Shown: positions 751-45,909 of the stretch, piece by piece
Layout of the letters: every line of letters begins with the position of its first letter
How positions within the stretch are numbered: the first letter of the stretch is position 1
Source: Hormiphora californensis
Taxonomy: Eukaryota; Animalia; Ctenophora
Assembly: GCA_020137815.1 (NCBI GenBank)
Contig: CM035356.1
Span: forward strand, 7,316,001 to 7,380,000
Length of the DNA stretch: 64,000 nucleotides
Direction: 5' to 3'
Notes under the pieces: model-generated
What the model was told of the DNA's origin: nothing
Seen by the model: the letters and a program-made list of their open reading frames with translations, nothing else
Databases searched by the model: none
Translations under genes and position numbers: made by a program

Positions 751-2219
751 AGTCAAACAAACTGTACAAATAATGCAAACAATAATTAAATAAATTAGCT
801 GTCCTTCAAACATGCAGTCCTTGAGAGTATGTATTTCGATACAGAGTTTTTTCGGTGGATATTATTGTCTGGACATACAAGGCATAGTTTTTTATCGAGA
901 AAAACGTTTAAAACGGAGTGTATGGTCTTCACTCTTCTTTCTTCGGCCTCTCTCAGCCAGTCTGCAACCTCATCTACTCAACTCTACACAAACTCGAAAG
1001 GCCAAGATACGTTTAAACAAAACACACACAAAGAATCTAAAATACTCTGTCATGGGTGGTCCCTCTACTAAGTCTCAGGTAGATGTAGGAAGGAATGTAG
1101 ATGTAGGAAGGAGTGTATAGTAGGTGTAGTAGGACATAGGTATAGTGGGATGGAAGGGAGTGGAAGTCTGGAATTTGGACTAGTGCATAAGCCATTAGGG
1201 CGTGGTGGCAATGAATACCGAATAGTGATAGGTGAGACAGGACACGGGAACCCAGGAAAGGACCAAGCAAGGGAGGCAGACCATGTGTAGTCCCAACTGA
1301 AGCCAGACAAGAGATAAGCAATTTGGAGAATTAGAAGCTGTAGCCTGGAGGAGGACAAGGATACACTGCACAACTTAATGGAAAAATGTGCCCTGGAAAG
1401 GATGAGGGTGTGCAGGTGCTGGAAAGATGGTGCTGTGCAGACGCCAGACATACCAAAATGACCCAGGAAAGCAAGGAAGCAAGTAGAAACCAAGGAAAAC
1501 CAGTAGTAACCATAGGAACCCAGTAGAAACCCAGGAAAACCAGTAGTAGCCATTATAGGAACTCAGAACCCAGGATGTAGAAATAAGAGGGAAACTCAGA
1601 AGACAGGTAGATTTCAATAACCGACTAACCACTTCTAAGAACAACCGAAACTTTCAATGAATAGATGATGTTTCAGGTACTTTTTGAACTCTGCAACAGA
1701 GGCTGATTCTCTTAGGAGTCGTGGTAGACTGTTCCATACGACTGGACCAGCTATAGAGATACCACGTTTAGTAACATTGTGTCGAAGCTTGAGGCTACAG
1801 TGTATTTTCTCTTCCAACAGGGTACTATCGTCGTCCGCTCTTAGTCCAATCTGTTTTCTCTGCCTCATTCCAACATCATCCTTCAAGTATTCTGGAGTCT
1901 GACCATGAACTACATTGTACATCAAGAGAGCGATTTTATATCGAATCCTCGCATAAATAGGTAAAAAGTGGAGTTCCTTGCTTAGTGCTGTTATTCCCCT
2001 TCTCTTCTTCCAGTTGAATACGTAACGTATGGCCGAGTTCTGCACTTTCTGCAGGCGCTTTAATTGCGATTTGTTAATACTGTAGAGAAGTGAGTTACAA
2101 AAGTCAAGTTTTGAGTGAACGAAAACGTTTACCATCCGGATCCTCGAGTCCTTGTCCATCATTCCCCCTACTCGCCAAAGGTTGTTCAGGTAACCCATAC
2201 ATCCCCGTACCACATGCGA

Positions 2220-5200
2220 GGAGGGTAAAGCTGGGTCAGGTGATTCGGGGCCCTCCGACCTGATGGGAGTCTCGGATCTGGTGTCATTTAATCGCAGAGT
2301 TATTTCTGGCCAACACATCCCTGGTGTGGCCGCTCCGGGTTCTTTTAGTTCCTTTAGTTCTTTTAAGCCAATTAATGCAGTCCGTAATCATTTTCATCTG
2401 GCAACTTGGAATGTTTTATCTCTACAGTCATCATCCTCTAAGTTGTACGAATTATCAAACGCAGTTTCATCTTTCCAACTTGACGTTTTGCTTCTCACAG
2501 AAACGCACTGGCCTGGTACGGAGGTTATGACCCTGGATAACGGGCATCTTTTTATTAACTCTGGCAGGGCAGATGGTTTGAGGCGGCAAGGTGTTGGGTT
2601 GGTGTTATCAAAATCTGTCAAGAAGTCCTTAATTTCCTACAGTCCCTTCTCTGAGCGCATCATGGCAGCCCGACTGCACACCAAACATGTTAATATCTCC
2701 CTTGTTATTGCATATGCTCCAACCAATGATAAGGATGACGCGGTCAAGGAGGAGTTCTACAACCAGTTATCATCGGTTTTGGATAGGCTTCCTCGGCAGG
2801 ACGTGGTCTTCTTGGGCGGGGATTTCAACGCGAGGGTTGGTGGCGGGCACTCTCTCCACCAAGTTTCTAATGACAACGGTGAGCGGTTGGAGGATTTGTG
2901 TGGGATTCATCAGTTGTCTATTGGTGGGAAGATGTTCCCTCATAGGGATCACCACAAGGGAACCTGGAGATCTCCTGACGGTACCACTGTGACGCAGATA
3001 GACCATCTGTGTGTCGGCAACAAGTGGCGAAGTTCTCTGTTGGATGTTAGGGTCCTAAGGAGTGCAGACATCGGGTCTGATCACTACCTGGTTCGGGGTA
3101 AGGTTAGGATCCGGCTGAGTGCAGCTAAGAACTGTAGGAAACCGGTCAGGGAGGTTCCAGCTATAGAGAATCTCAGGAAGGGGTGTGATGAGACACGCAC
3201 GGAATACAATGTCTCTCTCCGGAACAGGTTTGAATCTCTGGAGCCTGAGGAAAGTCTGGAGGGTCAGTGGCGGCAACTTAAGGAGGTAATCGGTGAGGTG
3301 TCACTGGAGGTCCTGGGAGCGCGGCCGAAACGGATTCGTCAGCAGCACTTGTCTCTGGAGACTCGAGACCTCATCGCCCAGCGTGCTGAGCTGAAGAAGA
3401 ATGATCCCGAGGGTGGATCTGAGTACTCTAGGCTTAATAAGTTGGTCAAGAAAGCAGCACGGGTGGACGATGAAAGGTGGGCGGATAGTTTGGCGTCTGA
3501 TCTGGAGGATGCTGCGGTGCACGGGCGGCAGAGGGAACTTTGGCAGCACATGAAAGATCTGTCAGGTGTGAGGAAACGCGGCGGTACTGCTGTTCGTGAT
3601 AGGAACGGTGAACTCATCGCTGATCCTGTTCAACAGCGGGAGCGCTGGGCGGAGCACTTCTCTGAGCTGCTAAACCCCCCTGTAACTACATCACAGCTCT
3701 CGGATCTGGATGGTCTGGAGGTGGACCCGTGCTTTGAGGATCTTGGTGAGGATGATCCTCCGCCTTCTCGTGGAGAAGTTTTAGTGGCACTGAACAGGCT
3801 CAAAAACCATAAGAGTCCTGGCGTTGATGGGATCTCGAACGAACAGCTACGGTATGGCTCGTCCGGTCTTGTTGGCCCCCTTGTGGATCTGTTTGGTGGA
3901 GTCTGGAGGGAGGAGAAGGTCCCGGAGGAGTGGTTAAAGGGTGTCATCTCGGTGATTCCCAAGAAGGGTGACGCCAGTGTGTGCTCAAATAATAGGGGCA
4001 TCACTCTGCGATCTACCACTTCCAAGCTGTTCCAGATAATTATGCTGAACAGGTTGTCTTCTGGTCTTGAATTGGCACTTCGAGAGAATCAGTGTGGATT
4101 CAGACGTAACCGGTCTTGTGTGGATCAGATTTATTCCCTCCGTACCATCATCCATCAGTGTATAGAATATAATGTACCGTTGTATATAAACTTTATTGAC
4201 TTCAAATCAGCATTCGATTGTATTAACAGGGATTTTATCTGGGCCGCATTTCGCCATTATGGTCTTCCAGAGAAGTATGTCCGGATAATTCGAGCATTCT
4301 TCGACGGTACTATGAGTGCAGTGAAACATGACGGGGAGCTCTCCGGCTGGTTCAGTGTCCTCAGTGGTACCGGTCAGGGCGACATTCAGGGTCCACCAGT
4401 CTTCAACATCGTGATTAACTGGGCGGCTCAGCTTGCTGAGTCCAACAAGACTGTCTCCAGGGGTCTCACTCTTCACGGCGCTGAGAGTGATGAGGGTGGG
4501 GAGTGGATCATGGATCTCGACTATGCTGATGACATGGCTGTAATGGATGATACTGAGGAAGGGCTCCAGGAGTCAACAGATTTGCTGGTAAAATACGCAG
4601 GGTACGCTGGTCTGAAGATTAATGCGAAGAAGACCAAAGTTGTGGCTTTTTCAAAGGGTCTTAGCCAGCGCCCATTTTCAGAGGTGGATACGGTCGGCAT
4701 CTCTGTGGAGGGTAATCCGGTTGAGCAGGTTTCCAGTTTTACCTATCTCGGATCGGCGTTGTCCTCTGACGGTACCATCGACAAGGAGCTTGGTATCAGG
4801 ATAGGGAAGGCTTACAGTGCATTCAGTATGCTTTGTAGGATCTGGTACAACCGTAACATCAGGACCTGTACCAAGATCAGGATATACAGAGCTGCTGTTC
4901 TGACAGTTCTTCTCTATGGTTGTGAGGCCTGGACAACTACTCAGGTCCAAGATCGCCGGGTGGAGGCGTTCCACCAACGGTGCCTGCGTAGAATCCTGAG
5001 AATACAGTGGTTTAGGAGAGTATCTAACAGGGAGGTACTGGAGAGGGCGGGGATAGAACCAATCTCGAAGTTCATTGGCAATGGGAGACTCCGCTGGTTT
5101 GGACACCTGATTAGAATGCCTGAGGGTAGGGTGCCCAACAAACTCTACCACTGGGTGCCTAGTCATGGGAGACGTTCCAGAGGAAGACCGCGTAAAACCT

Positions 5201-5377
5201 GGTCCTCCTGTGTGCTGAATGATTATCGAGACGCTACGGGTCAATCCCAGTCTCTCCGTGCAATTACTAACACTGCAGAGAACAGAAATGAGTGGAGACA
5301 GCTCACGTCATTACGAGCGAGGATACTTGGAGCCGGCCACTCGAATGATTGAGGAGACCGTACCAAGTATCAAGTAA
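2220..5377 (+). mobile_element. Apparently full-length RTE-clade non-LTR retrotransposon
   Basis: Flanked by the 13-bp TSD GTACCACATGCGA (2207-2219 and 5378-5390). It has a CAAGTA-repeat 3' tail and a single 1029-aa ORF. Confidence 0.95.
2263..5352 (+). CDS. RTE APE-endonuclease/reverse transcriptase protein (1029 aa, uninterrupted)
   Basis: APE motifs ATWNV, LTETHW, YAPT, GDFNARVG and SDHYLV; RT motifs QCGFR, FIDFKSAFD, GQGD, YADD and FTYLGS; RTE C-terminus RLRWFGHLIRM...RGRPRKTW. Confidence 0.95.
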   Translation: MGVSDLVSFNRRVISGQHIPGVAAPGSFSSFSSFKPINAVRNHFHLATWNVLSLQSSSSKLYELSNAVSSFQLDVLLLTETHWPGTEVMTLDNGHLFINSGRADGLRRQGVGLVLSKSVKKSLISYSPFSERIMAARLHTKHVNISLVIAYAPTNDKDDAVKEEFYNQLSSVLDRLPRQDVVFLGGDFNARVGGGHSLHQVSNDNGERLEDLCGIHQLSIGGKMFPHRDHHKGTWRSPDGTTVTQIDHLCVGNKWRSSLLDVRVLRSADIGSDHYLVRGKVRIRLSAAKNCRKPVREVPAIENLRKGCDETRTEYNVSLRNRFESLEPEESLEGQWRQLKEVIGEVSLEVLGARPKRIRQQHLSLETRDLIAQRAELKKNDPEGGSEYSRLNKLVKKAARVDDERWADSLASDLEDAAVHGRQRELWQHMKDLSGVRKRGGTAVRDRNGELIADPVQQRERWAEHFSELLNPPVTTSQLSDLDGLEVDPCFEDLGEDDPPPSRGEVLVALNRLKNHKSPGVDGISNEQLRYGSSGLVGPLVDLFGGVWREEKVPEEWLKGVISVIPKKGDASVCSNNRGITLRSTTSKLFQIIMLNRLSSGLELALRENQCGFRRNRSCVDQIYSLRTIIHQCIEYNVPLYINFIDFKSAFDCINRDFIWAAFRHYGLPEKYVRIIRAFFDGTMSAVKHDGELSGWFSVLSGTGQGDIQGPPVFNIVINWAAQLAESNKTVSRGLTLHGAESDEGGEWIMDLDYADDMAVMDDTEEGLQESTDLLVKYAGYAGLKINAKKTKVVAFSKGLSQRPFSEVDTVGISVEGNPVEQVSSFTYLGSALSSDGTIDKELGIRIGKAYSAFSMLCRIWYNRNIRTCTKIRIYRAAVLTVLLYGCEAWTTTQVQDRRVEAFHQRCLRRILRIQWFRRVSNREVLERAGIEPISKFIGNGRLRWFGHLIRMPEGRVPNKLYHWVPSHGRRSRGRPRKTWSSCVLNDYRDATGQSQSLRAITNTAENRNEWRQLTSLRARILGAGHSND

Positions 5378-5807
5378 GTACCACATGCGAAACATGCTTA
5401 TCCATTTTCAATTTGTCGTCGAATATAACGCCAAGGTTCCTTGCATATGATGAGGCCTCAACCACTTGATCGAAGAGCTGTATTTCCTTTGGATTGTCAC
5501 CACGGTCATGTATTGATTTTATGATCATAACCTCAGTCTTTCCAGCGTTTAACTTCAGCCGGTTTCGAGCCATCCACTTCTGGATATCCGCTAAGCAGAC
5601 ATTGAGTTTAGCTTCGGTTGCACTGAAATCCTGGGTTTTGAAGGAGCAATATAATTGGGAATCATCGGCATAAAGATGTATCGTCATACCGTGGTTCCTA
5701 GCAATTTGCTCCAACTCTTTGGTGTAGAGAATGAACAAAATTGGCCCAAGAATACTCCCCTGGGGTACCCCTATCTTTACAGCACGCTCTGTTGATGTCA
5801 CATTTCC

Positions 5808-6782
5808 AGAGGGGGGGGTCCGGGGGTATAAAAAGTCACTTTCGGTATCTGGTCCGGCTCGAAGAGCCGGACCAGATGACATACTCGGAATCGATTTTGC
5901 GCGCGCTGTTAGGGAGAAAATTGAGGTTAACTTTTAGCCCAAAATCAATGTTAACCTCTCTAATTCTTAGAGATCAGGTATTGAAACAATAAAAACTGTT
6001 CTAAAAGTAAGGTATCACTAAGGAGAGCATGTGTGAGCAATTTTATGGTGCTATACCTGGTAGTTCTTTAAATTTAGAGGTTAACATATTTCACCAAAAA
6101 GTAGCCTTTTGGTGAATAACTTGGAACATTTTTACGAATCGCCACTACATTCAGCTCATAAACGGCTAAGAGTTGGGCCTTGAAATTTGGCAGGCATGAT
6201 CCTTAGATAATAAACTGTGCTTTGAGTGTAACGATTTTTTATTGGAGCCTCCGTTCCCAAGATATTGAGGTTAACGTCTAAAAAATATCAGATGTGGAAT
6301 ATGTTAACCTCAATATCTTGGGAACGGAAGCCTCAATCAAAAATCGTTACACTCAAAGCACAGTTTATTATCTAAGGATCATGCCTGCCAAATTTCAAGA
6401 CCCAACTCTTAGCCGTTTATGAGCTGAATGTAGTGGCGATTTGAAAAGTAAGGTGTGAAAAAAGACCAAAAAGGTTGTTTTTTGGGCGATAAGTTAACCT
6501 CAAATATCCGAACAACTATATGGCTTAGACCTCTGAAACTTTAAACATTTGGTCTCCTTGATCAGATCTATCGATTGGTACCATTTTTATCTGTGAAGGC
6601 GACATAAATACAAGATTTTTGAGGTTAACTTACATTTTCGGTCAAAAGTTAACCTCAAAAAACAAAGCTTCCTGATACACTTGGTGCGCAGCTAACCTAC
6701 CCAAAAGTTTCCTACCACCGAGTTACATCATATATGTGAACCTCAGAAAAGTACATTTTTTGACCCTCGGACCCCCCCCTCT
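5808..6782. mobile_element. Non-autonomous TIR DNA element (~975 bp) with an internal ~140-bp-arm palindrome, no TSD
   Basis: Ends AGAGGGGGGGGTCCG...CGGACCCCCCCCTCT, with imperfect TIRs extending to ~35 bp. Internal inverted arms at ~6137-6276 and ~6303-6442. Many GAGGTTAAC/GTTAACCTC motifs. Confidence 0.88.
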
Positions 6783-8760
6783 GGCCTTAACTGACGCTGT
6801 TCTCCCGGTAAGGTAAGAACGGAACCATTTGAGAGCTGTTCCGCATATTCCATAACGTTTCTCAAGTTTCTCAAGTAACGTATTATGATCGATGGTATCA
6901 AAAGCGGCACTCAAGTCAAGAAGAAGAAGGACTGCTTTCGAATTGTCATCTGTTATGAGCAGTAGGTCATCAAGGATTTTAACCGTTGCTGTTTCCACGC
7001 TATGACTTTTCCGGTATGCTGACTGAACTTTACCTAGTAATCCATTTGACTCTAGATAATGTGTTAGTTGGAGTGCCACCGCCTTCTCAATCAGCTTGGA
7101 CACAAAACTCAGATTGGACACGGGTCGATAATTCTTTAAGTCATCTTTGTCTCCATCCTTTAGTTTGAACGCTGGTCTAACAAGAGCCTTTTTCAATTCA
7201 GACGGGAACTCGCCAGTGGTAAGACTTGTGTTCACCATCTCAGCCATGACTTCTATCAACTCTGGCAAAAGCTGCGATACCATAGAGGTTGGAAGAGGGT
7301 CTAGGTCGCAGTGTTTATAGGCCATGGAGCGAATTATCTTGGTCAACTCTTCATCCTTTAGCTCTTGAAACTGATCTAGTTTACAACTTATCTCAGCATG
7401 TGGTAATTCCGGAGGAGGGCCCAGTTTTTCAGCATCTTTCTCAATAGTTTCATAGATATCATCCACTTTCTTCTTGAAATAGTTGGCGAAGGCTTCAGCC
7501 AGTTCTGCATCCTCGAAGCCGCTCGGCCTTTCTTTAGGAGTCTTGTCTCTTCCTAGTAAGTAGTTAGTTAACCTGTAAAAGGCGGCGGCATTGTCTTTGG
7601 AGTCGTTAATCTTCTTGTAGAAAAAGTCTTGCCTAGTCGTCCGGATGGCTGAGCTTGCTTCTGCATTCGCTCTCTTGAGTTCATACAGTGCCGTCAGGAC
7701 ATCTCCAGATCGTTTTTTCACAAGATTATACCACCTTTCTGCTTTCCTCCTTTTTCGTTTTGCAGCTTGGCAGGCAAGATTGTACCATATCGGTCTATCT
7801 TTATGAGGCACCACCCTTGGAATTTCCGGTGCCACCTCATCAAGAAACTTCCTTAGCTCACTGTTGTAGAGCTGTACAAGTTCATCCAGAGACAAAGATA
7901 GGTCAAGACCAACTAAGTCAGATTGATTTATCATCTCCACAAAGGCATCCAAGTCAATATCCTTGAAGGACCTGCTCAAGATGGTTTTTGTCAGGCCATG
8001 TTGATTTGATTTGCCAATGTGGTATCGAAAGCTGACAAGAAAGTGATCTGGTAGGTATGTCTTTGGTTCAGAGTTAATTGACGTAACTCCTGCAGAGTCA
8101 GCAGCAGCTCGTGTGATAACCAGATCCAACGTACCCTGATCCTTGTGTGTCGGTACGTTCACCATCTGTTTCCACCCATGATCCTCCAAGACACCAAGAA
8201 AGTCCGATGAGAGTCTATCCTCAGGGCGTTCCACATGTACGTTAAAATCCCCGACGACAAGGGAACCCTTCTTTTCAGAAAAGTTGTGTAAAAAGTCCTC
8301 CCAGTCATCTAAAAACACGGAGTTCCTTCTCCTTGTCGGCGAGCTATAAACTACCGCAATGGTTGTACGAGTGACGTATTTCCCACTTATGGTAGCCTCG
8401 ATATATTCAAATTTTGGAGGTTGGCTGTAGGAAAGAAACGGCCATCTTGGAAATCGGTTAATAGGTTTTCAAGATTTCGGTATTTCGCTGCAGCGGGGTC
8501 GAACGAACTGAACCAGAAATAATGAAAGATTGGCCTACTATCTGTCCATTGTCCTCAAATAATCTTAAATATCCAGTATCCACTAACAATTCCTAATTTA
8601 AGACTGAAGCGCAATGTCGCTAGACTGTGTTTCGGGAGGGTTAGAACAACAAAATGCCAACTGTCCATGCAATTGTGAATTGTGAAACAGCTTTGACTGA
8701 CTGATTGATTGCTAATCCCGCTTCGTAATACCATTACTAATACTAAAATGCTAAGTTAGT

Positions 8761-11700: not shown

Positions 11701-13828
11701 GGGAAAACTAATAGTTGGAGGTGTAGACTTGGTGAGTCTACTAAATATTAATTCAATCATAATTGATACTTTCTTGGCATTCATCAACTTATAGTGATTA
11801 TTATGAGGATGTTTCAGTTTTTCAGTTTTCGTTTATTTTTGTGGCTGGCACATGTTTTGGTCACACATTTGGAGCGGCCGAACACTGCGCGCATCATACA
11901 CCGACACGCGCGCAATGAAAAGTACACAATTCAGCATTCAGTAACAGGGTCGGGGCTCTGCGCACCACTGCTCCATGCATGTGAAATTTCAGGAAAGGAC
12001 TTGACTGATGTCAAATGTCAAGAGACTGTCACTGACAACAGCTAACAAAACACAAATGTATAAAATTGGTTCAGTAAGTTACTAATATCTCCCCTCTGTT
12101 GCAGTTGGAGAAAGCCAAAGAGCAACAAAAACTGTTGGATGAATCGTTCAAAGTGTTGGAAGCAACGACAAAAAATCAGGAGAAGATTAAAGAAGAGATA
12201 GAGGAGCGAGAGGTAACATTTTAGTACTTTTAATTGAGTCACCCCCCCCCCCTTTCTTCGCAAAAAGTAACGAGACGGGTATATCCTAAGAAATCGTTAT
12301 TTTTCAACGAACTACTGAGTTGTTGATTCTCCAATCTCACGTGTTTTTTTTCACGTGTTTGATTTCCCTCTACAGCAAGAGAAGCTCATGGTGGAAGAGA
12401 AGTACAGTAGTTTGCAGGAGGAGGCAGCGGGGAAAACAAGGAAACTACAGAAAATTAATCAGATGTATAAAAGTGCTAAAGCAGAGGTAGGACACATGAT
12501 TCTTATGATTATGTCCCCCTGTTTAGCCTTTCTTTTCTAACATGAAATGAGTTGAGACTATTTTACTAGGACTGAGCTAGCCCTCCCAATGAACCCCGCC
12601 CACTGCCTTACTGCCCATACTGACCCTCAAGGCAGTGTCCAGGATCCTGTTCCCCCTTGTCATGCCATTCAACCTTTCCCCCTGTAGATTGCAGACATGA
12701 AGGTGGAACATGGTAGGAGGGTGGAGGCATTAGTGGACGATGTTAAACAGTTAACTAAGGAACTCAGACTTCAAGAGCTACTCATCAATCATACCATCCC
12801 ACCAGACTTTCAGGATCTCATTGAAAAGGTAGGAAATATAGAACTGATTGGACCGGACCCTGCACCCCCCCCCCTCCCCCCAATAATAAAAACTCTATCT
12901 TATCAGCTAAAAATTTGAATTAGTTTTTACTGCAAAAGAAATTGCTAAAAGATTTAGCCCAGTTTATCTTACTAAATAAATTGTTCATTTCATTTTCCCG
13001 TTTTATATCCGATGGTGAAAAAAAACAAAGTTGATATTTAAAATCGTCCATCATTCCTAATCACCCTCTCGCTTGCGTGAGAATGGGTCAATGCTCTGAC
13101 AGTTCCTCCTATGTCAGCGTGATGCCTGACATCGTTCCCCCTAAAGCCAAGTTTGATCACAATCCTCTGTACACTCCACCTCTGCCCATCCAAAACCAGC
13201 GGTCCATCCCCAGCCACGCCTACAGAGACACCTGTGGCAGCCATCCATCCATCGCTGATTGAATTGTGCATACCTGGAAGTGATGATGTTAGGGCCACAC
13301 TTTACAAGTTCCTAAATTTCAAATCACCGCCCTCTTCACCTGGCAGTAAACCCTAAATAACTGCACGGACTCACCCCTGTCAGGTCAATTATGCTCTGAC
13401 AGGATCAACACATGTTTTCATGTTACCCACTTACCCGTCTATTCCATCCCTGTTCCTGTAAGGGCACTTCATGGGACATGCCCTTAGATGACAATCATTG
13501 GTAGCCCTATCACCACACATACACCAGTTACATCCGTCAAAGAACTGTGAAAAAGATATAAACGTAGAAATTAAGCCAAAAACTAATTGAAATTAGTTGG
13601 CGGGAAAGGTGGTCCACTTGCACCTTTTTCTTCTACTGCACATTGTATAATGACTCTACTTATGAATTAGCAGCCTATGGTACTCGATTGTTTACCTGTT
13701 CCCCAGGAGAAACGCTGGCCGTCCTTCCATTGGATTTAACAAACACGCATCTCCCACACCGTGCACCCTTGATACAAATAATCTTATCCTGGTCACACCT
13801 GAAATTAAGGCAATGATGCCCTCTCTCT

Positions 13829-13913
<85 letters not shown>

Positions 13914-13926
13914 CTCACTCTCTCTC

Positions 13927-13968
<42 letters not shown>

Positions 13969-16900
13969 CCACCCTACCTGCAATCCTCACAGCCCTCCTG
14001 AAAGACCTCCCCGTGCTCTACAACAGTTCCATTTTCCAGAACGCAATGTTTGTGATCTGGGACGTTCATGTGAATCTCGTCACCAGTTACCATGGTTACC
14101 ATAACAAGGACCATGATAACATGACCTGCCATGATATCTTGCTATGCGAGAGGTCGGTGAGCAACGATACATTTGACATGATACTGGTTTTACTGAGACA
14201 ACTTTCCCAGGCCAGGCAGAATTACAATGAGAAAAGATACTCATTTTTCAAGTTTTAGAATACACATCGTGAATTGATCTAAAACGCCTCAGAACATTTA
14301 AACAGGAAGTAATAATATCAAGAAAAAGCAAGTCTTGGCAGCTGTGCCGCGGCACTGACAGTGATGTATGTGTAATCGGAGGGGGCTACAAGACACAAGT
14401 GTGTAACTCTAGTTATTAGGGCCCGGACACCCCCGGACTGCAAAGTAACTCTGCAGGAGAGGAGAGAAGGAGAAGGAAGAGAATTCATTATCCAGGGTGA
14501 TACTTTATACTTTATATCATGCTTAGTGCTTAGATCACTGAGTGGGTAACATCATCCATCTATTCATATTTCATACCACATTAAAGTGAGAGAGAACAGC
14601 CCCGATTTTGATGAAACTTGGTCAGAATAGTGTTTGGTGTCTAATTAGATCCTAAATTTAGGATTTTTAGGTTTTTTAAGTTTTTCGGCTTTTATGGGTT
14701 TCAGGAACGTTCTAGAACAAAATAAATAAAACCATCTTTCTCGGCATTAAATTCTGCATCGATTATAGTGGTTATAAACCTTTCTATGACGTAAGGTTCA
14801 GAAGTTATCGCAAAAAAGCCCAAACGGGTACATGTGTTAGGGGCGGGTTCATGTTTTAGGCTAACCGGCGAACCTCTTGTCAGAACACCATGTTATAGGT
14901 GTCATAGGGTGTCAATCGACGCGTATTGATAAGGAGATCATTTTAGTGAAAATTATTTTGATCTGCGATGTCTGTGTAACGAATGAAACCTAAAAAACCT
15001 TACCACATGTTTTAACCAAACGGGTATGCTTCATTCAGTAAGGTTTTTTAGGTTTCATTCGTTACACAGACATCGCAGATCAAAATAATTTTCACTAAAA
15101 TGATCTCCTTATCAATACGCGTCGATTGACACCCTATAACATGGTGTTCTGACAAGAGGTTCGCCGGTTAGCCTAAAACATGAACCCGCCCCTAACACAT
15201 GTACCCGTTTGGGCTTTTTCGCGATAACTTCTGAACCTTACGTCATAGAAAGGTTTATAACCACTATAATCGATGCAGAATTTAATGCCGAGAAAGATGG
15301 TTTTAATCATTTAGTTCTAGAACGTTCCTAAAACCCATAAAAGCCGAAAAACCTAAAAAACCTAAAAATCCTAAATTTAGGATTTGAGCACTAAAAATTT
15401 TTTGACTTCTAATTAGACACCAAACACTATTCTGACCAAGTTTCATCAAAATCGGGGCTGTTCTCTCTCACTTTAATATAGAAATCACTTCAGACTCAGT
15501 GCGAATTTCTAATGTTTGTTGTCTGATTTTAGGATGACATCCCATACCTACCTATATCGATTAGAAAAGAACAATCGGTTTCGATGATTTTAATACCATT
15601 TGTATAAAAAAGTAACAAATGACTGTGCCACTAATTGTCTCTATATTCTCATTGTCCATCATACTACCAATCCGTCGTATAACTGGTATCACCATAGTCA
15701 TCATAACCGTCCCCGTAACCAAAATAATCATCATAGTCACCGTAACCTTGGTAACCATCAGATCCTTGCTCGTAACCATAGTAACCGTCTGTCCCTTGCT
15801 CGTAACCTTGGTAACCATCAGATCCTTGCTCGTAACCTTGGTAATATTCCGTCGTTCCGTACTCGTAATTTTCGTAATTATCGTAGTGGTAATTGTCGTA
15901 GCAGGCAAAGTAAGCCTCGTACATTGGATATTTGGGATCGAACACACAGCTGCAAGTCTCCTGAGAAAAAAGAGATCATAAGTAAAGCCATCTTGAACTT
16001 TCGTCGGAACATGCGCAGTGGCATCAGGTTTAATCCATCACGTGACGCACTATATTTGGGCATCACGTGACACTACTTACTTACCATGATACCAGTTCCG
16101 TCCTGTTTGTAGCGCTGTATCGTGGCATCAGGTTTAATCCACCTCACTGCGTGCACCACTCCAGTTGAGGTATGGTCAAAATAGTGAGGGCACCTGAAAC
16201 AGTATCGGTAGTTCATTGGTAGTTACTAACTAGTTAGTTCGTTGGATGTATCATTTAGAAGAGACGGGCTGATATTGTTAGTATGATATGCAGGGTGTCA
16301 CAAAATAATTGGACTCTTTTTTCACAAAACAATTAACATTAAAAAAACGTCCATGGACAGCTGTAGCCTAGTAGTGTATCACGTGAATTGTGAAACTCCA
16401 TATTTTGGCATCACGTGACACTCCTTATTTGGGCATCACGTGACACACCATATTTGGGCCTTACTACTCACATCCAGGGACAGTAGCCACTTTGTTTTTT
16501 ACACCACACTCCTTTAAGGCCACAACCACAAGTGTTACACCCATCGTAAAACTGTTCCCCTCGCCCCACCGTCTCTGGTGTAGGAGTAAGTGGTTACCTA
16601 TAGTTACCATGGTTACCTATGCCTGGTTACCTATGGTTACCTATAGTTAGATCCTCAGTGATGTATGTGCAGCGCAGCTCCGCTGTAGTTGTGAATGGTG
16701 TAGGGAGGGTTGTCACTCTCTCTGTTGTCACCTGGAGGGACATGTTAATTATTAATACCTCACCTGTTTTAATGATGTTAATATTAAAAATTTCGCCCTA
16801 GTTACCTCCTTTTCTGTCTTGTCTGGAGGGGGCCATTTCTTGTCAAGGGTGGTTGGTTCAGGAGTTGGAATGGTAGTTTCACGCCTCTCTTCCTCTGTCG

Positions 16901-19476
16901 GAATGGTGGTCACACGCCTCTCTATCTCAGTTTTCATAGGAGTGGGAATTGTTGTCTCACGCCTCTCTTCCTCAGTTTTCATAGGAGTAGGAATGGTTGT
17001 CTTACGCCTCTCTTCCTCGTGTGTGAACGGAGGTGGGGTGGTAAATTCATCCTCTCCCTCTTCCCTCTGATCGTCTGTCGGCTCCCCCGTATCGTATGTG
17101 AAGGGGTAGGGAGTTGTGGGGAGTTGGTATGTTGTCGTTGCCGCCGAATCACTGGCCCTACCCAACCAGGGGGCACATTCCACACCAAGAGTGAGGAACA
17201 CAATCACTGCTATAACATTTCCCCTCATGTTCTCCTTTTTAGATCACATTTGTCGTTTCACTTGGCGAATTGTTGTAGTCTTATTTAGCATAAAATACAA
17301 TATACTAACAAATGGCAACTTCAATATTATTATCAGTATTATTATGATTATCAATATTATTATGATTATTAGCAAACCGATTCCAAGAAGCAGAATTATA
17401 CAAATCGAGAAGAATAATGTTAACTTGCGACAACAAATTTAGGGCAAATTGTAACACAATTTCAAAAAGATACAGGCCCAAGGGCCCCACAAGGAAGCCC
17501 TCAACTAGGCTGGGCCCTGGAAATAATCATATCACATACACTCCAAAGTGTGATTAGATTCACGGGAGGACGATCTATCGGATTGAAGAAAACAAGCAAC
17601 AAAATGCGTTTTTTGGATCAATTCCAGTTTTCTAAAAAGCTTCATCTCTCAACAAATCTTATGTGCCTTTCAGTGGTGGATATTAACAGACATGTCCCTT
17701 GTTGAGTATGGGATGGGAGAGGGTCCCACTAGACATACAAATAGTTGTAAAATAATACTAAATACTTGCACTATTCATAAGGGGGCCGCGAGAAAGAGAC
17801 TGGAAAATTCAACTATAAATTCCAGCCACTCATATGGTCCAGAATCCAGATTGAGTTAATACAACAACATAATGCAGTTATATGGGAAATCATAACACAG
17901 ATCAAAGGAAGGAGGGTGTTTTGGTCTACTGATGCTCATATGATGACATCGTGTCTGGAAATTAAACAGTTGAGTACTAAACAGGAATAAATATACCAGT
18001 AGTACTAGTAGTACTAGTGTGTTTGGTGCTACATATTACTAATTTACTTTTTACTACTAGTATGTAGTACTACTAGTAGTAAAAAGTAAAGTAGTAATAT
18101 GTAGCACCAAATTTCCTCAACATACTGTCGAATCCCATGACCCCTATTGACCTATTCCCCATGCTTATGTGCCTTGTAATGTACTACACATATCAGCAAA
18201 AACAAAATTATATGCACGACATTATGCCTGTTGGAGAACTATTAGATTATCAATATCATTTCCCCTAATTTTAATTCACTTTTCTCATAGCTCAGCTGAC
18301 ACGGCGAGACATGATAGTAGTCATTGATTTGATTTTCAAATCAATAGTAGTCATGTGGAATGGAGCTTGTAAATTTTATCAATAATATGTCGGACCCCGA
18401 TTTACCGGGCCCCAGTTGACCGGACCCCCGATTTAGTGGGGGATTGATTTCCCCCGATATAGGAAATGAACGGCATTTTATCCCGACATACCGGAACCCC
18501 GATTTACCGAACGCTTTCCCCCGGACATCCTGGTAAATCGGGGTCCGATTGAAATGTTATTACTCCGTTCCCGATTTGTAACTAACTCTAAGAGTCTTAG
18601 TAAGAATTTCATATTTTTGTTTCCTGGTGGGGGTATAAAATGATAAATCAATTGTCTATTATCCCCCAGGATTAAAATCCTTCCTTTTCCTCTCCCCTCC
18701 CTCACTAACTCCCATCTCCCCATCTGAACCCCTCCCGCTCTAACCCAACCCCCTCTTTTCAACATGTGCTATCCTCATTCCTCCCACCCTCTAAGCCACC
18801 CCACTCCACTCTAATCCACCCCACCCAACCCCACTATAACCCACCCCTTGCTAACCCACTCATTACTAACCCACCCACTCTAAGTACTCTAACCCACCCA
18901 CCCGCACTCTAATCAGCACGTGCTATGGAACGAAGAGATTGGTGAGTGGCAGCTACACTACGTGGCCTACACGGGCAACAATATGAGGCAACGAACACCA
19001 ACACCACCACCTCAATCATTCGAACAATTTGTAAGTAACAATTTATTGAGTAACCCCTTACTATACCTAAAGTTGGATTCTTGAAGTTGTCAACCCCCAC
19101 CCCCTTCTCGTTTGACGTTTTGGGGTGACAACTTCAAAAAATCCGACTCAACAAATTGCGACCCTTTCAATCCGGTTCATGTTCTCTCCACAACTTGTAC
19201 CTCACATAACCTGACAACTTGTCAGGTTATGTGAGGTACAAGTTGTGGAGAGAAAATGACAAGTGACAACCTGTTTTTCTCCAGGATAAAGAGTTGGACA
19301 TGGTTTATTGGACATACGGAAACCTGGCCCCTGCACCCAAGAAAAAGAAGGAGAGGAAAGATAAGGAGAAAAAGAAAAGGAGAAAGAAAAAGGAGCAACT
19401 TGAATCTGATCAGCCCTCTGTCATGGTCATCCCTGATCCCCCTCCAGCTCGGCCTGGCACTGCCTTCCGTCGGTGA
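8761..19476 (+). CDS. KIF3A: Kinesin-2 motor subunit KIF3A (~16 exons, with a 6.1-kb intron at 12829-18916)
   Basis: [87 protein letters not shown] and [13 protein letters not shown]. The tail exon 18917-19030 reads [24 protein letters not shown], typical of KIF3A. Last exon ~19286-19476. Confidence 0.93.
13141..14132 (-). CDS. Nested secreted protein (~166 aa) with three pacifastin/VWC-like Cys modules; exons 14132-13978, 13798-13696, 13544-13435, 13273-13141
   Basis: Hand-spliced with GT-AG introns and matching phases (2,0,2): [21 protein letters not shown]...[137 protein letters not shown]. Confidence 0.85.
13820..13966. repeat. (CT)n microsatellite; similar tracts at ~23303-23402, 25712-25802, 48225-48272, 48886-48936, 51720-51813, 53556-53795, 56491-56600
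   Basis: Directly visible dinucleotide runs. Confidence 0.97.
14581..15476. mobile_element. Fold-back MITE with TTAA flanks (Kolobok-like)
   Basis: TTAA|AGTGAGAGAGAACAGCCCCG ... CGGGGCTGTTCTCTCTCACT|TTAA. Near-perfect inverted arms of ~420 bp around a ~30-bp spacer. A TTAA TSD with RR...YY ends fits Kolobok. Confidence 0.85.
15664..17228 (-). CDS. Nested secreted protein (~340 aa): signal peptide, Thr/Pro/Glu repeats, VWC/pacifastin-like Cys modules, Tyr/Gly/Asp-rich tail; exons 17228-16806, 16731-16641, 16574-16472, 16193-16085, 15960-15664
   Basis: All introns are GT-AG with consistent phases (0,1,2,0). [18 protein letters not shown] signal; ([15 protein letters not shown])n; [50 protein letters not shown]...ETCSC...C; [10 protein letters not shown] repeats. 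Confidence 0.85.
17300..17960 (-). mobile_element. Possible degraded LINE 3' remnant with a (TAA)n-like tail
   Basis: ATT-rich repeat at 17325-17370 next to coding-like sequence with no open frame. Weak support. Confidence 0.3.
18389..18549. mobile_element. Small MITE of the GTCGGACCCCGATTTACC family; second copy at 41134-41298, fragments near 32364 and 44352
   Basis: TIR GTCGGACCCCGATTTACC ... GGTAAATCGGGGTCCGA with internal CCCCGATTTA repeats. The 41134 copy starts TA|CAGTCGG, a Tc1/mariner-like end. Confidence 0.8.
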
Positions 19477-21409
19477 TAGCAGGGTTGCTGATTAATGAAC
19501 TGCATCATGGTAGTGGGGAACTGTTTGAGCTGGACTCATGATAGTAGAAGTTGTTGAGTAAAATGGAAGAGAGAGATCAGAGTAATATCGTTGTGATTGT
19601 GAAACCGGGTAGTAAATTATAAGCAGACGACTAGGTAATAACAATTGTACACAGTAGATTTGATAACTAAATTTTGTAAATAAGTGCTGCGGGCTGCCAA
19701 TACAGTATTACATACACTTGTTCAAACAAGTGTATGTAATACTGTAACATGCTCCAATCTTCGGCCTGGATACTGATAGGGACGGTGTTCGAACATGCAA
19801 TGTTCACGTGTTGAGAATCACAAAGTGATCTGAATTGAATGACTGTTTTATTTTACTCGGTAAATTGTAAATAGGTGTCACATTCTCAAACTTACTATAT
19901 TTATTGTTAATTATTTGTTTTGTTCATCTCATATCACGGTGTTTTAATTTTGTACACTAAATTTTTGTATGCAAAATTTGTACGCGCAAATAGTTTGACG
20001 CGCAATAAACATCTAATGCGCGGCGCGCGCGGTAAGATGAAAAGTTTAGTTAAAAATTAAAATTTTGGGTCGAAAAAAACTTGAAACTTTTGAGATTTTT
20101 AATTTTTTCGAACTTTTGTTTGGCGTCTTCTTCCGTGTTTGAAAAGTGCTGTATATCCCGTAATGGCCACTACTTGTGGCACAGAACGGAGGGGTCTGTA
20201 GCTAATAACAACTTATGTGTCACTTGTTTTATTGTTTTAAACGCTCTCAAATTGTTAAAATCATCGCGAAAACTTCCGGCTTCGATCCCTGGACCCTGCT
20301 TGAGGGGGCTCTGCCTCCTGGAAAGGGGCCTAGACCCCCACCGGGGTTGCGCCTATATATCCTACTTATGAGGGATTTCACGCCCCAGTGGCTGCCTTGC
20401 CCCGGACGCACAGGGACACGCTGGGTCGGAGACTCAGCTCCGTCCCTGACTTTAGCAGTTTGCTGTTCGCCGTCCGGTCAATAGGGAATCACAGACAACT
20501 GAAGGGCCATTTTCGCATTTCACACGTACATGGTTGTCTCGGGATTTGAACCATGGTCCACGAGTATGGCTATTGGCTACTCGAAGCTTCTCACCGAGGA
20601 CCTCTCGGCAGCAGTGATTGAACAGCATCGGACGTTCAAATCGAACAAAAAGAACACATTGAAGAAAAAAGAATAATTCTTTCGTGGCTGATGGCTCCAA
20701 AAACGAGAAACGAAATCACCATAAATTAGTGGAATTGTTTTGGCAGTAATCACCCCTGCAGGACGCTAGATCTTCTCGCGGAGAGTGAGACGCATCATTA
20801 TGGCTAACCTGCTTACCACTGGAATCGCTGAACTTTATCAACAGACAATGGTTTGAATCTATCTCAGCCAGGTACACCGTACAACCTTCCACACACCAGG
20901 CAAAGCTTTTAATTTTTGGGTCTGGACCCAGTGGGTGTGTTATACTTTTGGCAGTGCTGGACACACAATTTCGGTCGCGATGAGATGAAAGCCGTGCACT
21001 TCCCCTCCCTGCTCTAATTGAACAATTGTTTCTTCTCATCCCCTTGTTTGGACTTTGAGCCTTGAGGAGAACTTGATTGAGTAGTAGGCTGCTGAGTGCT
21101 GACTTAGAAACACGGGGGAAAACAACTCGGAACCTTACACCTTGTTAGAATAATCATCATGAGACGGAGTCGGATCTGCTCAGCAGACCGTCGACGCTTA
21201 AATTGTGGTCACGCTTTAACTTGCCGCAGTTCCTCCTTGATTCAGTTGTTGTTGAATGTAGATTGTTTGATGTGTTTATATGCAACATATAACTCCTCTA
21301 AATCACTCAGCACAGGTCACACACGACCTATGCAGTAGACCTTACTAGTACATGATTACTAATTGTCTCACGACCAGCTACTAACTCTCTCACACTAAGT
21401 TAGGGAGAT

Positions 21410-31500: not shown

Positions 31501-33970
31501 CTTTTATTTTGGCTTCCACGTTAAAAACGTTATCCTTGTTACCATGCAGTGATTACTAAAACCCTAATCCACCAGGAGACGAAGTTGAAGAAGAAGCACA
31601 GGATTGTTCTAACTGAATTGGAGGATATCCAGGGATCTCTGGTGGATGTCCACTATGGATTTCGGGTTAAGGTTAAATGTGGAATTCCACAGTTATCTGA
31701 ATACTTGGAAACAAGATTAAACGCAAAACAGGTGACTGAAATCTTGGAACAAGAAATACCTTTTCACCCTGACCTTGTCCATCTAGATACATGTGATTCA
31801 CATGATGTGAATTCCACATGCTCCTGTCAGTGTTTCTTATTTATATTTTCCTCTCAGAAATTCCCTGATATCCAAGATATCCGGAAATTAATTGTCCGGG
31901 GATTACAGCACTGCCGGGTAAAGATGAAGGAGACTAAAATTGATGCCCTATCGAGACAGGTCCTACTAGATATTGGCTCACAGATCCAGCTGCATAGAAA
32001 AAACGAACTTCGGTATGTCCTGACATAATTCTCTTTTAGATCCCTTTCTCTCTCCCATCCCTCTCTATCCCATCCTCGCTCTCACCCTCTCTATCCCCTC
32101 TCTCTCCCCCTCTGCCTCTCCCCCATCCCCCGATCTCCCTATCCTGTCTCCCTCCCTCTCTCTCCTCCAGACTGGACGGTGGATTCCATCTGATGGACCG
32201 TGTTGACCTCACCGCTGACCCTGCCAAGCAGGACACAGAACTAAGGAAGAAACTAAACAGAAACAAAAAGGAAGCTGGCAGGAAACTACACTCAATCCAA
32301 ACTGAGTAAGCATTATATTTTACATTCTAAATGATATTTTTCGCAGGGGGGGGGGGGTTACTAGCCCCGATTTACCGGCCAAATTCCCCCGGTAGTATGT
32401 ATAGGAATTAGGGGATTAATGATACACATAGTTAAAAAACTTCTTAAAGTTAACCCAGAATATTATTTTTAATTTCCAAATATCTCGATTTTTTCTCATT
32501 TTGAAGGTTTTATAGTAAATTGCATTTGCTCTTTTTCTTTTTGGACTGAACTAGACTGGGCTGAGCTGCACTCTTATTTTTGGTTGCCCGGTATTCAGCG
32601 CCTATTTTAATTGCTTCTTCAAAAATCTCTGTAACTCCAATATCATCTTTGGACGAACACTCCATATAGCACGCTGCTCCGATCCTTGCTGCCAGGTGAC
32701 GACCCTCCTCAAAACTCACACTGTTCTCATCCCTCAAGTCCACCTTTGAACCCACCAATATCACAGGAATACCGGGGCAAATAAATTTTAATTCCGGTAA
32801 CCATTCAGTTACAATTTTGTCGAAGCTATCTCTGCAATTCACAGCAGTAAGCAGCAGGAAAACGTCGACTCCATAGTACGAATGAGGCTTTACTTGGAAA
32901 TGTTCACCTTCCCAAAGTTTCCAGGCATCCCCACCGAGTGTATCCCACTGGGCTTCCCAACTAGCCATGTTGTACTTTTGACCCTCACACTCAACATGTT
33001 TACGATTAAAGTTCATATACTCCATATAACGTGTGGTCCTATACATAACAGGTTCTTCCAAAACAATAGAAATGTGTTCCTCAGAAAATTCATTTTGGAA
33101 GTAGCGAATCAGCATACAGGACTTGCCCATACCATAGAATCCTATGACAAGAAACTTCAGAGATGGCCATTTTGAATAAGGTATCAGATAAGCCATCAGT
33201 TCTCTGTTCTATCGGAAGTGAACGGTTAGCTAAATAAAGATTAATTTATAATCTTGTTAGGGATATCGGTTAACGTGGATAACCCTGATAACTTACGGGG
33301 TTATCACGGCCTCACTCATGTCTCACTACCTGGATCCACTTCCAGAAGAGTTTCTGAGTTATTCGCGTTAACCGATATCCCCTTTTGCAATATCACGAGG
33401 GCACTGCAAATTGGAAGGCCGATCGAAAGCAGATAGGATGGGTATGAATGAGTTCTGAGAAAGAGGAAAAATAGAGGAGCTATTATATCTACCATTTGTT
33501 TACATAAAGTATCGTCCCTCCTAAAGAGTAAAGATAACATATTACTTCATTTTCTAATTTTCTTCCTTTACGTTCTTTTTTTAGAATCATGAGTCATCTA
33601 TGCAGTCCTATTGATATTGATACCAAGAGAAGTCGCGAATAAAAAGGCATCGTATCCATTATCCGGGTGATTGCCTTTGTTTAGCAAAACTTATAACATC
33701 TGTACCCTACTCAAATTTATCCCCCACAGGTTTGATGACCGGCAGTTTAAGAGAGAGTTACAGGATAGTCTTCTGTTTGATGATGATGCATCAGATGAGG
33801 GGGAGAAGAAAAAGGGGAAGTCTGATGAGGAGGGTGGTTCGGAGCAGAACACTGACTCTTCAGATACTGATGATGATGAGAAAGGAAGTGGTGTGATCAA
33901 TTCTGGTGTTGATCAAGAAATGAAGGAAGTAGAAATAAAGACATATCCAGAGCCAATTTTGATAGATTGA
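28567..33970 (+). CDS. DAXX: DAXX-like histone H3.3 chaperone (multi-exon)
   Basis: Histone-binding-domain matches: IRAIQEADIGVDDLDKWGNLYLQETKLKKK, FPDIQDI, DIGSQIQLHRKNE and DPAKQDTELRKKLNRNK. Acidic tail and a C-terminal SIM-like PEPILID*. The N-terminal exon assignment is less certain. Confidence 0.8.
32510..33196 (-). CDS. Intronless atypical Rho-family small GTPase nested in a DAXX intron
   Basis: G1 GFYGMGKS, G3 WDTLG, SYYGVDVFLL, EWLPELK..CPGIPVILVGSKVDLR, YMECSSK, and a polybasic stretch plus CAAX (KKKKSKCNLL). Confidence 0.9.
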   Translation of the reverse strand: MAYLIPYSKWPSLKFLVIGFYGMGKSCMLIRYFQNEFSEEHISIVLEEPVMYRTTRYMEYMNFNRKHVECEGQKYNMASWEAQWDTLGGDAWKLWEGEHFQVKPHSYYGVDVFLLLTAVNCRDSFDKIVTEWLPELKFICPGIPVILVGSKVDLRDENSVSFEEGRHLAARIGAACYMECSSKDDIGVTEIFEEAIKIGAEYRATKNKSAAQPSLVQSKKKKSKCNLL

Positions 33971-45021: not shown

Positions 45022-45844
45022 CTATCCATCATCGCTCTCCATCGCCAGATCAATTTGTTCGAAATATCTGCAAATCAGTATAAAAATGATGGTAAAAGGA
45101 AGGGAGTCTGTGTTATCTGTTGTGGTCGATGTTTGTCCCAACTTCCTACATCTCCTTCCAATACTCCTAGAAGGGGGAGAATTGATATTAGAAGTCTTTT
45201 CAAGTTATTAAATTAAATTAAATTAAATTTTCAAATGTAGTCACAGTTTATTGGCTGATTTAAAAACTAAAACTGCTGTATATGACTCACCTTAGTATAG
45301 ACATGTAGTCCATGGGAACAGGTTTATCCACCACAGCCAAAAGTGCAAATACCCATGATGCAACTGAGCCTGGAACTCTCGATTCAACATCCGACGACAG
45401 ACATATATCACCCACATACTCGAGTAAGTCAAAAACAAAAGTTTGGGTAAGAGCTAGAATGATTGATAAACTGGGTGGTTCATCAAACAGTTTCTTACAT
45501 TTCTCCATCCTTGCTCCGTGCACTACCTTGTTAGGATAAAGTTTCTGCATTCGACAGCAGTATTGCCGTGTTTGGGAGAAATTCTTGAGTTGCTTATTGA
45601 TAAACTGTTCACTGATGTCCTTTAAAAATGACCTCGTGTTGGTAACGGGCGGAGGAGTCGGTTGGGTGTATGTAAATTTGGACCTGTCCACTGACATAAC
45701 GTCCGGGATTTGTTTCGCTTGACGGTGCACCTGGGAAAGGTATTCTAGTCCATCCTGAGGCTTGCTGCTAGTTGAGAGGACTGGACCTATGGGCAGGGCA
45801 TGACGGAGCATTGAGTCTGACTCCGAGTTGGCATCGTCATTCAT
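45022..45844 (-). CDS. GEMIN2: Gem-associated protein 2 (SMN complex); exons 45844-45291 and 45166-45022
   Basis: PQDGLEYLSQVHRQAKQIPDV and WVFALLAVVDKP; second exon reads SIGRRCR...LICRYFEQIDLA. Confidence 0.85.
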
Positions 45845-45909
45845 TTCTTGGTTACCTAGAAGATATTATTGTGAAAGTGAGGTGTCCCTGCCAATTTGTA
45901 AAGCTTCGC

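What the first reader, a model, noticed from the sequence alone, without database searches (positions are those of the whole stretch)
13141..14132. Hidden four-exon gene for a secreted pacifastin-like protein, antisense inside a KIF3A intron
Seen: four exons missed by the ORF track splice with GT-AG and matching phases into a 166-aa protein with a signal peptide and three 6-Cys modules. Established: pacifastin (MEROPS I19) domains follow C-x(n)-CNxCxC-x-CTxxxC, for example locust SGCI ...PGTTFKDKCNTCRC...CTLKACP. Module 2 here reads [14 protein letters not shown]...CHLRACP, with Leu at the P1-equivalent position. Inference: a multi-headed serine-protease inhibitor, or a short VWC-type ligand binder, in an early-branching animal. 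Pacifastins are best known from arthropods.
Basis: partly seen in the sequence, partly recalled or inferred. Interest (0 to 1): 0.85.

Follow-up and report, generated by a model that had tools for sequence, protein, structure and literature searches.

The report
Comb-jelly pacifastin-like gene inside kinesin intron
A real, conserved four-exon gene sits backwards inside an intron of a comb jelly's kinesin gene and encodes a likely secreted protein of three six-cysteine, pacifastin-like modules, only one of which is predicted to block proteases; it adds a new animal group to a known family, and a related gene lies beside it.

Summary
Observation confirmed. The four minus-strand exons splice GT-AG in phase into 166 aa with 18 Cys. 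A contig from one run of a related organism covers exon 3 at about 81% identity. Its loose ends read into exons 2 and 4, so 2 of 3 junctions are seen spliced, and 10 of 11 listed differences are synonymous. The host intron is KIF3A 12829-18916; the nearest named relative is the ctenophore Pleurobrachia bachei. The modules resemble long-loop 'ancestral' pacifastin-like domains, but none meets the canonical pattern. Only module 2 has the four-residue reactive loop (P1 Leu, P1' Arg), so 'multi-headed inhibitor' is not supported. A likely tandem paralogue with a Thr/Pro-rich stalk and Tyr-rich tail lies in the same intron (17228-15664). Non-arthropod pacifastins are published (PMC2689174, PMC13388995), and nested genes are common in this family of ctenophores (PMC8527503). 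Three paper searches found no ctenophore pacifastin. Verdict: new member of a known kind. The scan earlier noted a nested pacifastin-like gene in another genome.

The parts
13978..14132 (-). Gene 1 exon 1: start codon, predicted signal peptide (about residues 1-17, 14132-14082), C1-C3 of module 1
13696..13798 (-). Gene 1 exon 2: C4-C6 of module 1, C1 and long loop of module 2
   Evidence: AG/GT; its 3' end appears as the loose end of a relative's contig
13435..13544 (-). Gene 1 exon 3: C2-C6 of module 2 with the reactive-type loop (13493-13476; P1 Leu106 at 13487-13485), C1 of module 3
   Evidence: Covered by relative's contig, 10 of 11 listed changes synonymous; Pacifastin_I 19.4 bits, below cut-off 27.9; coordinates
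13141..13273 (-). Gene 1 exon 4: C2-C6 of module 3 with a 16-residue Trp/Gly/Arg-rich loop (13221-13174), stop codon
   Evidence: AG acceptor and stop; its 5' end appears in the relative's loose end; profile match 13.1 bits
12829..18916 (+). Host intron of KIF3A, 6,088 nt, GT-AG
   Evidence: Junction seen in relative's contig; flanking exons join in frame; downstream exon hits PDB KIF3A
15664..17228 (-). Gene 2, predicted tandem paralogue (exons 17228-16806 or 16764, 16731-16641, 16574-16472, 16193-16085, 15960-15664; 340 or 354 aa): signal peptide, Thr/Glu/Pro-rich stalk, one six-Cys module, one degenerate module, Tyr/Gly/Asp-rich repeat tail
   Evidence: Stop-free GT-AG model and pairwise blastp to gene 1, E 2e-9, 38% over 50 aa; Pacifastin_I 17.9 bits; composition; sequence-only, splicing not observed
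14580..15477 (.). 898-bp palindromic element (nested inverted repeats) between the two nested genes, likely a non-autonomous foldback transposon
   Evidence: Arms of 70, 251 and 104 nt at 98-100% complementarity; no other copy in the window

Best explanation
This is a spliced, conserved gene nested antisense in a KIF3A intron of a ctenophore, and it encodes a likely secreted protein of three tandem long-loop pacifastin-like modules, of which the middle one is predicted to inhibit a chymotrypsin- or elastase-type serine protease. Shown: the exons, two of three junctions in a relative, purifying selection on exon 3, and the host intron. Inferred: the signal peptide is removed near residue 17; each module closes C1-C4, C2-C6, C3-C5; the modules stay joined, since the linkers are 2-3 residues with no dibasic site; module 2 presents Leu106-Arg107 as a substrate-like loop (standard mechanism); modules 1 and 3 have lost that geometry and serve as binding or anchoring units, module 3 through its aromatic loop. 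The nesting is likely incidental.
For: Exon 3 and the paralogue's exon both hit Pacifastin_I and no other Pfam family. The three-exon profile ranks locust pacifastins first in the PDB, best E 0.014. A 32-row profile ranks 16 pacifastin chains (E 8e-7 to 4e-3) ahead of von Willebrand factor (E 0.035 and weaker). It finds 1,476 proteins at E <= 0.001; 10 of 10 hand-picked hits from the 150 listed pass the Pacifastin_I cut-off. A profile of 30 natural modules recognises all three modules: 22.6, 36.0 and 13.1 bits, reached by 0, 0 and 4 of 500 Cys-preserving shuffles. The C5-C6 loop of module 2 differs from locust inhibitor chains in 1-2 of 4 residues, and all five codons C-H-L-R-A differ synonymously in the relative. 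The exon-3 model's best Foldseek row is PMP-C bound to chymotrypsin, though not significant (E 1.2).
Against: 0 of 3 modules meet the canonical pattern of PMC2689174, and none meets my strict 13-20-residue ancestral pattern; C1-C2 is 21 in modules 2 and 3. Pfam scores on single exons stay below the cut-off (19.4-21.1 vs 27.9). Module 2 lacks the P2 Thr and the Gly at the canonical position. The 30-module and 32-row profiles were seeded with a motif taken from module 2, so they are partly circular: with that motif kept, 4 of 500 shuffles reach module 2's score. Natural relatives also match VWC, TILa and FnI_RECK. PMC13388995 states that inhibition by its non-metazoan homologues is unvalidated and reads the long-loop class as matrix scaffolds. 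Models of exon 3 alone are low-confidence (pLDDT 55 and 61.5). RNA support is one run of a different organism; exon 1 is untested.
Confidence: 0.5

Rival explanations
1. The protein is a non-inhibitory extracellular binding or scaffold protein of VWC/FnI-type modules (matrix, mucus or growth-factor binding); the Leu in module 2 is a relic or coincidence.
For: 2 of 3 modules and the paralogue's module (C5-C6 gap of 6) lack reactive-loop geometry. The paralogue carries a stalk of 24% Thr, 15% Glu, 13% Pro and a tail of 28% Tyr. Natural relatives co-match VWC, TILa and FnI_RECK. PMC13388995 ties the long-loop class to adhesion modules. Strict conservation of the loop fits a fixed partner of any kind.
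Against: Pacifastin ranks above VWC/vWF and in 13 of 16 natural ORFs. There is no CC doublet, so no complete VWC domain. Module 2 keeps a four-residue loop close to that of real inhibitors.
Confidence: 0.36
2. All three modules are inhibitory heads with different specificities.
For: All three match the module profile. Gaps of 3 and 5 residues between C5 and C6 each occur in 2 of 34 natural matches.
Against: 27 of 34 natural matches have a gap of 4. Modules 1 and 3 lack the Asn after C2, and module 3 has a 16-residue C4-C5 loop.
Confidence: 0.07
3. The 5' end is wrong: exon 1 is entered through the AG at 14141 from an upstream exon, possibly of gene 2, so the hydrophobic stretch is internal.
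For: An acceptor-like site lies 9 nt before the ATG, in frame, and gene 2 exon 4 ends in phase 0. A 15-nt motif in the hydrophobic stretch recurs in an intron of gene 2.
Against: Gene 2 has its own terminal exon and stop. The acceptor could equally serve a 5' UTR intron or spliced-leader trans-splicing, common in ctenophores (PMC8527503). The N-terminus has a normal signal-peptide profile.
Confidence: 0.05
4. A chance splice model or a dead gene.
For: No protein of 18-2000 aa sharing three 5-mers with exon 3 or the paralogue's exon was found among 5.8 billion clusters; the tool calls such a blank weak evidence.
Against: Two junctions and strongly synonymous divergence in a relative; intact frame, 18 regularly spaced Cys and a paralogue.
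Confidence: 0.02

Closest known systems
'Ancestral' long-loop pacifastin-like domains (PMC13388995; Pfam PF05375, MEROPS I19)
   Same: Six Cys with a CxxCxC core, long C1-C2 loop with Gly and aromatic residues, tandem modules with no processing sites, non-arthropod host; module 2 has the Asn after C2 and a four-residue C5-C6 loop.
   Different: C1-C2 is 21 in modules 2 and 3 (class defined as 13-20); Asn missing in modules 1 and 3; C5-C6 gaps of 5 and 3; P1-P1' is Leu-Arg, whereas the class is enriched in trypsin-type pairs; Ctenophora is not named in the main text.
Locust pacifastins PMP-C / SGCI (PDB 1gl1, 1pmc, 1kgm)
   Same: Best PDB sequence matches; Leu at P1 and a basic P1'.
   Different: Short C1-C2 loop (9-12), Thr at P2 and Gly in the C4-C5 loop; most insect precursors have dibasic cleavage sites (PMC2689174).
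Trichoplax TAPP-1 (PMC2689174)
   Same: Non-bilaterian tandem pacifastin-like precursor; each domain is split by an intron after the third Cys, where intron 1 of this gene also lies.
   Different: 42 domains and 88 exons, and no predicted chymotrypsin-type heads; here 3 domains, and introns 2 and 3 lie in the C1-C2 loops. Intron phase could not be compared.
VWC (PF00093), TILa and FnI_RECK modules
   Same: Natural relatives match these profiles as secondary hits; module 1 spacing resembles the N-terminal half of VWC (recalled).
   Different: No CC doublet or C-terminal VWC subdomain; no exon hit these families.
Nested intronic genes of Hormiphora californensis (PMC8527503)
   Same: Genes inside one intron of a host gene; 2,357 such genes in 1,654 hosts, 1,109 flanked by a transposable element.
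   Different: Nothing unusual here; I did not determine the window's species.

Membership tests
Pacifastin (PF05375 / I19), conventional | Pattern C-x9-12-C-N-x-C-x-C-x2-3-G-x3-6-C-T-x3-C (PMC2689174) | tested here: not met
   0 of 3 modules in gene 1 and 0 in gene 2
Pacifastin (PF05375 / I19), conventional | Pfam score at or above 27.9 bits | tested here: inconclusive
   Single exons give 19.4, 21.1 and 17.9 bits; the spliced protein could not be scanned
Ancestral pacifastin-like domain (PMC13388995) | Six-Cys scaffold per module | tested here: met
   18 Cys in three modules; a relaxed pattern of mine matches 3 of 3
Ancestral pacifastin-like domain (PMC13388995) | C1-C2 loop of 13-20 residues | tested here: inconclusive
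   17 in module 1 (met); 21 in modules 2, 3 and gene 2, one residue over
Ancestral pacifastin-like domain (PMC13388995) | Asn after C2 | tested here: inconclusive
   Present in module 2 and gene 2; Glu and His in modules 1 and 3
Ancestral pacifastin-like domain (PMC13388995) | Conserved Gly hinge in the C4-C5 loop | tested here: inconclusive
   None in module 1; module 2 has Gly only directly after C4; module 3 has several in a 16-residue loop
Ancestral pacifastin-like domain (PMC13388995) | Four-residue C5-x-P1-P1'-x-C6 reactive loop | tested here: inconclusive
   Met in module 2 only; 5 and 3 residues in modules 1 and 3, 6 in gene 2
Ancestral pacifastin-like domain (PMC13388995) | Disulfides C1-C4, C2-C6, C3-C5 and TM-score >= 0.5 to the fold | tested here: inconclusive
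   Only exon 3, without C1, could be folded (pLDDT 61.5); pacifastins are 5 of the top 7 Foldseek rows, TMq 0.45-0.50, none significant; no VIA-align match
Pacifastin (PF05375 / I19) | Canonical inhibition of a serine protease | not testable with these tools
   Needs an enzyme assay
VWC domain (PF00093) | Ten Cys including a CC doublet (feature recalled) | tested here: not met
   No CC in either gene; no VWC hit on any exon
Nested intronic gene | Whole gene within one intron of another gene | tested here: met
   13141-14132 lies inside KIF3A intron 12829-18916; host junction seen in a relative; UTR ends not mapped

The most novel reading that the evidence does not exclude
The two nested genes are a ctenophore family of secreted glue or matrix proteins built on a pacifastin-like module: gene 2 supplies a mucin-like stalk and a 28% Tyr cross-linkable tail, and gene 1 guards the secretion from proteases and binds surfaces through its Trp/Arg loop. 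The intron between C3 and C4 shared with Trichoplax would date this module and its intron to the last common ancestor of animals, and the pair would be candidates for the unidentified colloblast adhesive.
Probability: 0.1. Interest if true: 0.72.

Novelty: new member of a known kind. Interest (0 to 1): 0.36.

Why it matters
It would extend pacifastin-like domains to Ctenophora, a phylum named in neither survey's main text. It also offers a small testable case for the open question whether long-loop pacifastin-like domains inhibit proteases or act as matrix scaffolds: one protein holds one inhibitor-like and two degenerate modules. The gene was not found in a 5.8-billion-cluster collection that includes Pleurobrachia proteins, which suggests small nested genes are being missed by annotation. 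None of this overturns a principle.

Tried and rejected
No whole genome is held, so copy number outside the window is unknown. Run search: no RNA holder listed; the 23 rows at share 0.05 probably hold the GA microsatellite (inferred). I laid 7 of the 24 runs: X1, X4 and X15 gave nothing on 12300-13810; X2, X8 and X16 gave only low-complexity matches on 15500-19600. X24 did not cover gene 2 or the downstream KIF3A exon; that is no evidence on expression. Word-indexed searches with alignment A2 found nothing at 75-2000 or 18-74 aa. The 2 prokaryote loci lie antisense to long unrelated ORFs and were rejected as chance. The single-sequence model of exon 3 (pLDDT 55) gave no Foldseek match; the alignment-based model gave no significant match. 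The spliced protein could not be given to Pfam, AlphaFold or the Atlas, so whole-module scores and folds are missing; SignalP was not available. The ESM Atlas gave no result. The top 150 representatives rank by repeat number; 10 were looked up, 6 have names (insects, molluscs, one hypothetical), none a ctenophore, which says nothing about absence. The supplements of PMC13388995 list protein ids only; even 'Trichoplax' gave 0 hits, and recalled accession prefixes gave 0, so I cannot exclude ctenophore ids in that data set. Rfam found nothing in the intron. The bacterial promoter scan is irrelevant here. No complex prediction was run. A full KIF3A exon model was not computed because the script machine was lost. 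Search one search was too loose to be informative.
Full report
1. Observation. The 18 Cys fall into three modules spaced 17-2-1-6-5, 21-2-1-7-4 and 21-2-1-16-3, linked by 2 and 3 residues. The N-terminus is the only hydrophobic stretch; its reading as a signal peptide cut near residue 17 is my inference, since SignalP was not available. Of 18,000 template placements, only the real one was stop-free with 10 or more Cys; this control ignores the free choice of boundaries.

2. Independent evidence. The run search listed no RNA holder. I laid 7 of its 24 runs. One, X24 (kind 'RNA?', contigs), gave a 172-nt contig over exon 3 with 19 differences in 98 nt, so it comes from a relative, not an identical genome. 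Read by hand, its loose ends continue into the end of exon 2 and the start of exon 4, skipping both introns. The sides beyond the joins are 34 and 28 letters; the second is below the tool's 31-letter guide, and the joint table was empty. Of 11 listed differences 10 are synonymous, including changes in all five codons of C-H-L-R-A, against 26 of 117 possible changes; 8 differences near the contig ends were not listed. A second X24 contig joins KIF3A 12828 to 18917. This is one run from one study.

3. Setting. The downstream host exon matches KIF3A tails in the PDB at E 3.6e-12; a motor exon matched KIF3B, the only chain under the 1e-25 cut. The host intron is 6,088 nt, while the upstream KIF3A introns look short by eye. 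A long ORF elsewhere in the window is 80% identical to a Pleurobrachia bachei protein; the only other hit was 37%. The window is therefore likely from a related ctenophore; I did not determine the species. In Hormiphora californensis 2,357 nested genes sit in 1,654 hosts (PMC8527503, passages), so nesting is ordinary.

4. A second gene. A six-frame scan found another module core at 16539. It belongs to a five-exon minus-strand model, 17228-15664, of 340 or 354 aa, similar to gene 1 at pairwise E 2e-9. It has a hydrophobic N-terminus, a Thr/Glu/Pro-rich stalk, one six-Cys module with a six-residue C5-C6 gap, a degenerate three-Cys module, and a tail of 28% Tyr, 21% Gly and 17% Asp. Its splicing is inferred from sequence alone; no laid run covered it. 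An 898-bp palindrome separates the two genes.

5. Family. Exon 3 and gene 2's module exon hit only Pacifastin_I, at 19.4 and 17.9 bits against a cut-off of 27.9. A three-exon profile ranks locust inhibitors first in the PDB, best E 0.014. Of 128 matches, 34 had all six Cys; 27 of 34 have a four-residue C5-C6 gap. I dropped 2 short ORFs and 2 duplicates, leaving 30. Their profile scores modules 1, 2, 3 and gene 2 at 22.6, 36.0, 13.1 and 32.7 bits, reached by 0, 0, 4 and 0 of 500 Cys-preserving shuffles. With the seed motif kept, 4 and 7 of 500 reach the scores of module 2 and gene 2, so that part is partly circular; modules 1 and 3 lack the seed motif. Of 16 parent ORFs scanned, 14 hit Pacifastin_I, 13 as best of these related families and 9 above cut-off; several also match VWC, TILa or FnI_RECK. 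The 32-row profile places 16 pacifastin chains above von Willebrand factor in the PDB and finds 1,476 representatives; 10 hand-picked of the 150 listed all pass the Pacifastin_I cut-off. Folding was limited to exon 3, which lacks C1: pLDDT 61.5, with pacifastins in 5 of the top 7 Foldseek rows, none significant.

6. Membership. The canonical pattern (PMC2689174, passages and section 15) is met by no module. PMC13388995 (abstract, sections 5, 6, 9, 10, 12, first third of 13, passages, supplement searches) defines an ancestral class with a 13-20-residue C1-C2 loop, Asn after C2 and a Gly hinge. Module 2 fits except for a 21-residue loop, His at P2 and the Gly position; modules 1 and 3 fit the scaffold only. 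I file the protein as pacifastin-like, closest to that class, and not as a conventional pacifastin. There is no complete VWC domain (the CC criterion is recalled). Intron 1 falls between C3 and C4, as in every domain of Trichoplax tapp-1; the other two introns do not, and phase was not comparable, so this is a hint only.

7. Mechanism. Most likely (0.5) a secreted, unprocessed three-module protein in which module 2 inhibits a chymotrypsin- or elastase-type protease through Leu106-Arg107, while modules 1 and 3 bind or anchor. P1 follows the published numbering, and P1 sets specificity in tested pacifastins. Every functional step is inferred. The main rival (0.36) is a non-inhibitory matrix or ligand-binding protein, favoured by the degenerate modules and the paralogue's architecture. 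Three active heads (0.07), a different 5' end (0.05) and artefact (0.02) are unlikely.

8. Novelty. Searches for pacifastin with ctenophore (the one hit, PMC13673367, has unrelated mentions, passages), pacifastin with Mnemiopsis (0 papers), and ctenophore with serine protease inhibitor and Pleurobrachia (2 reviews, listing only) showed no ctenophore pacifastin. The library lacks most subscription papers, and the supplement of PMC13388995 gives ids without organisms, so this is not proof. PMC6278862 (passages) reports no clear homologues of known adhesives among colloblast candidates, which leaves the glue idea open but unsupported. An earlier scan note (e1-7833270) describes a nested pacifastin-like gene in another genome; I did not check it.

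9. Verdict. A real, likely unannotated gene, correctly spotted; a new ctenophore member of a known, widespread domain kind with a likely tandem paralogue. Interest 0.36.

Noticed in passing
window 17228-15664 (-): Second nested antisense gene, paralogous to the finding: predicted signal peptide, Thr/Glu/Pro stalk with 45-nt repeats, one six-Cys module, and a Tyr/Gly/Asp tail of 30-nt repeats; resembles a matrix or adhesive protein (inferred).
   Followed up: partly
window 14580-15477: 898-bp nested palindrome (arms 70, 251, 104 nt, 98-100% complementary), likely a recent foldback element; no second copy in the window and no clear target-site duplication.
   Followed up: partly
window 14141 (-): Acceptor-like AG nine bases before the gene 1 ATG, with an in-frame stop at the AG itself; could be a spliced-leader or 5' UTR acceptor.
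   Followed up: no
window 32510-33208 (-): Intronless Ras-family (Rho-like) GTPase ORF, Pfam Ras E 9e-29, antisense between plus-strand ORFs at 31525-32028 and 33671-33970; probably another nested gene.
   Followed up: partly
window 2194-8468 and 45804-46745: Reverse-transcriptase-like retroelement ORFs, judged by eye: one of 1,052 aa on + (2194-5352), fragments on - (5370-8468), another on + near 46 kb.
   Followed up: no
window 54000-55700: Runs of A, C, G and T homopolymers with very low complexity, which look like low-quality sequence in the assembly.
   Followed up: no
window 18389-18435: Short element matched by 5 X24 contigs at under 90% identity, inside a small inverted repeat (18390-18548); likely a dispersed repeat shared with the relative.
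   Followed up: no
L016, L019, L023, L032, L049, L057, L060, L078, L099: Metagenome ORFs with pacifastin-like modules above the Pfam cut-off; L060 has a reactive loop almost identical to module 2.
   Followed up: partly
window 42737-43654 (-): DNA2-like helicase/nuclease exon, 80% identical to a Pleurobrachia bachei protein; used for lineage.
   Followed up: yes
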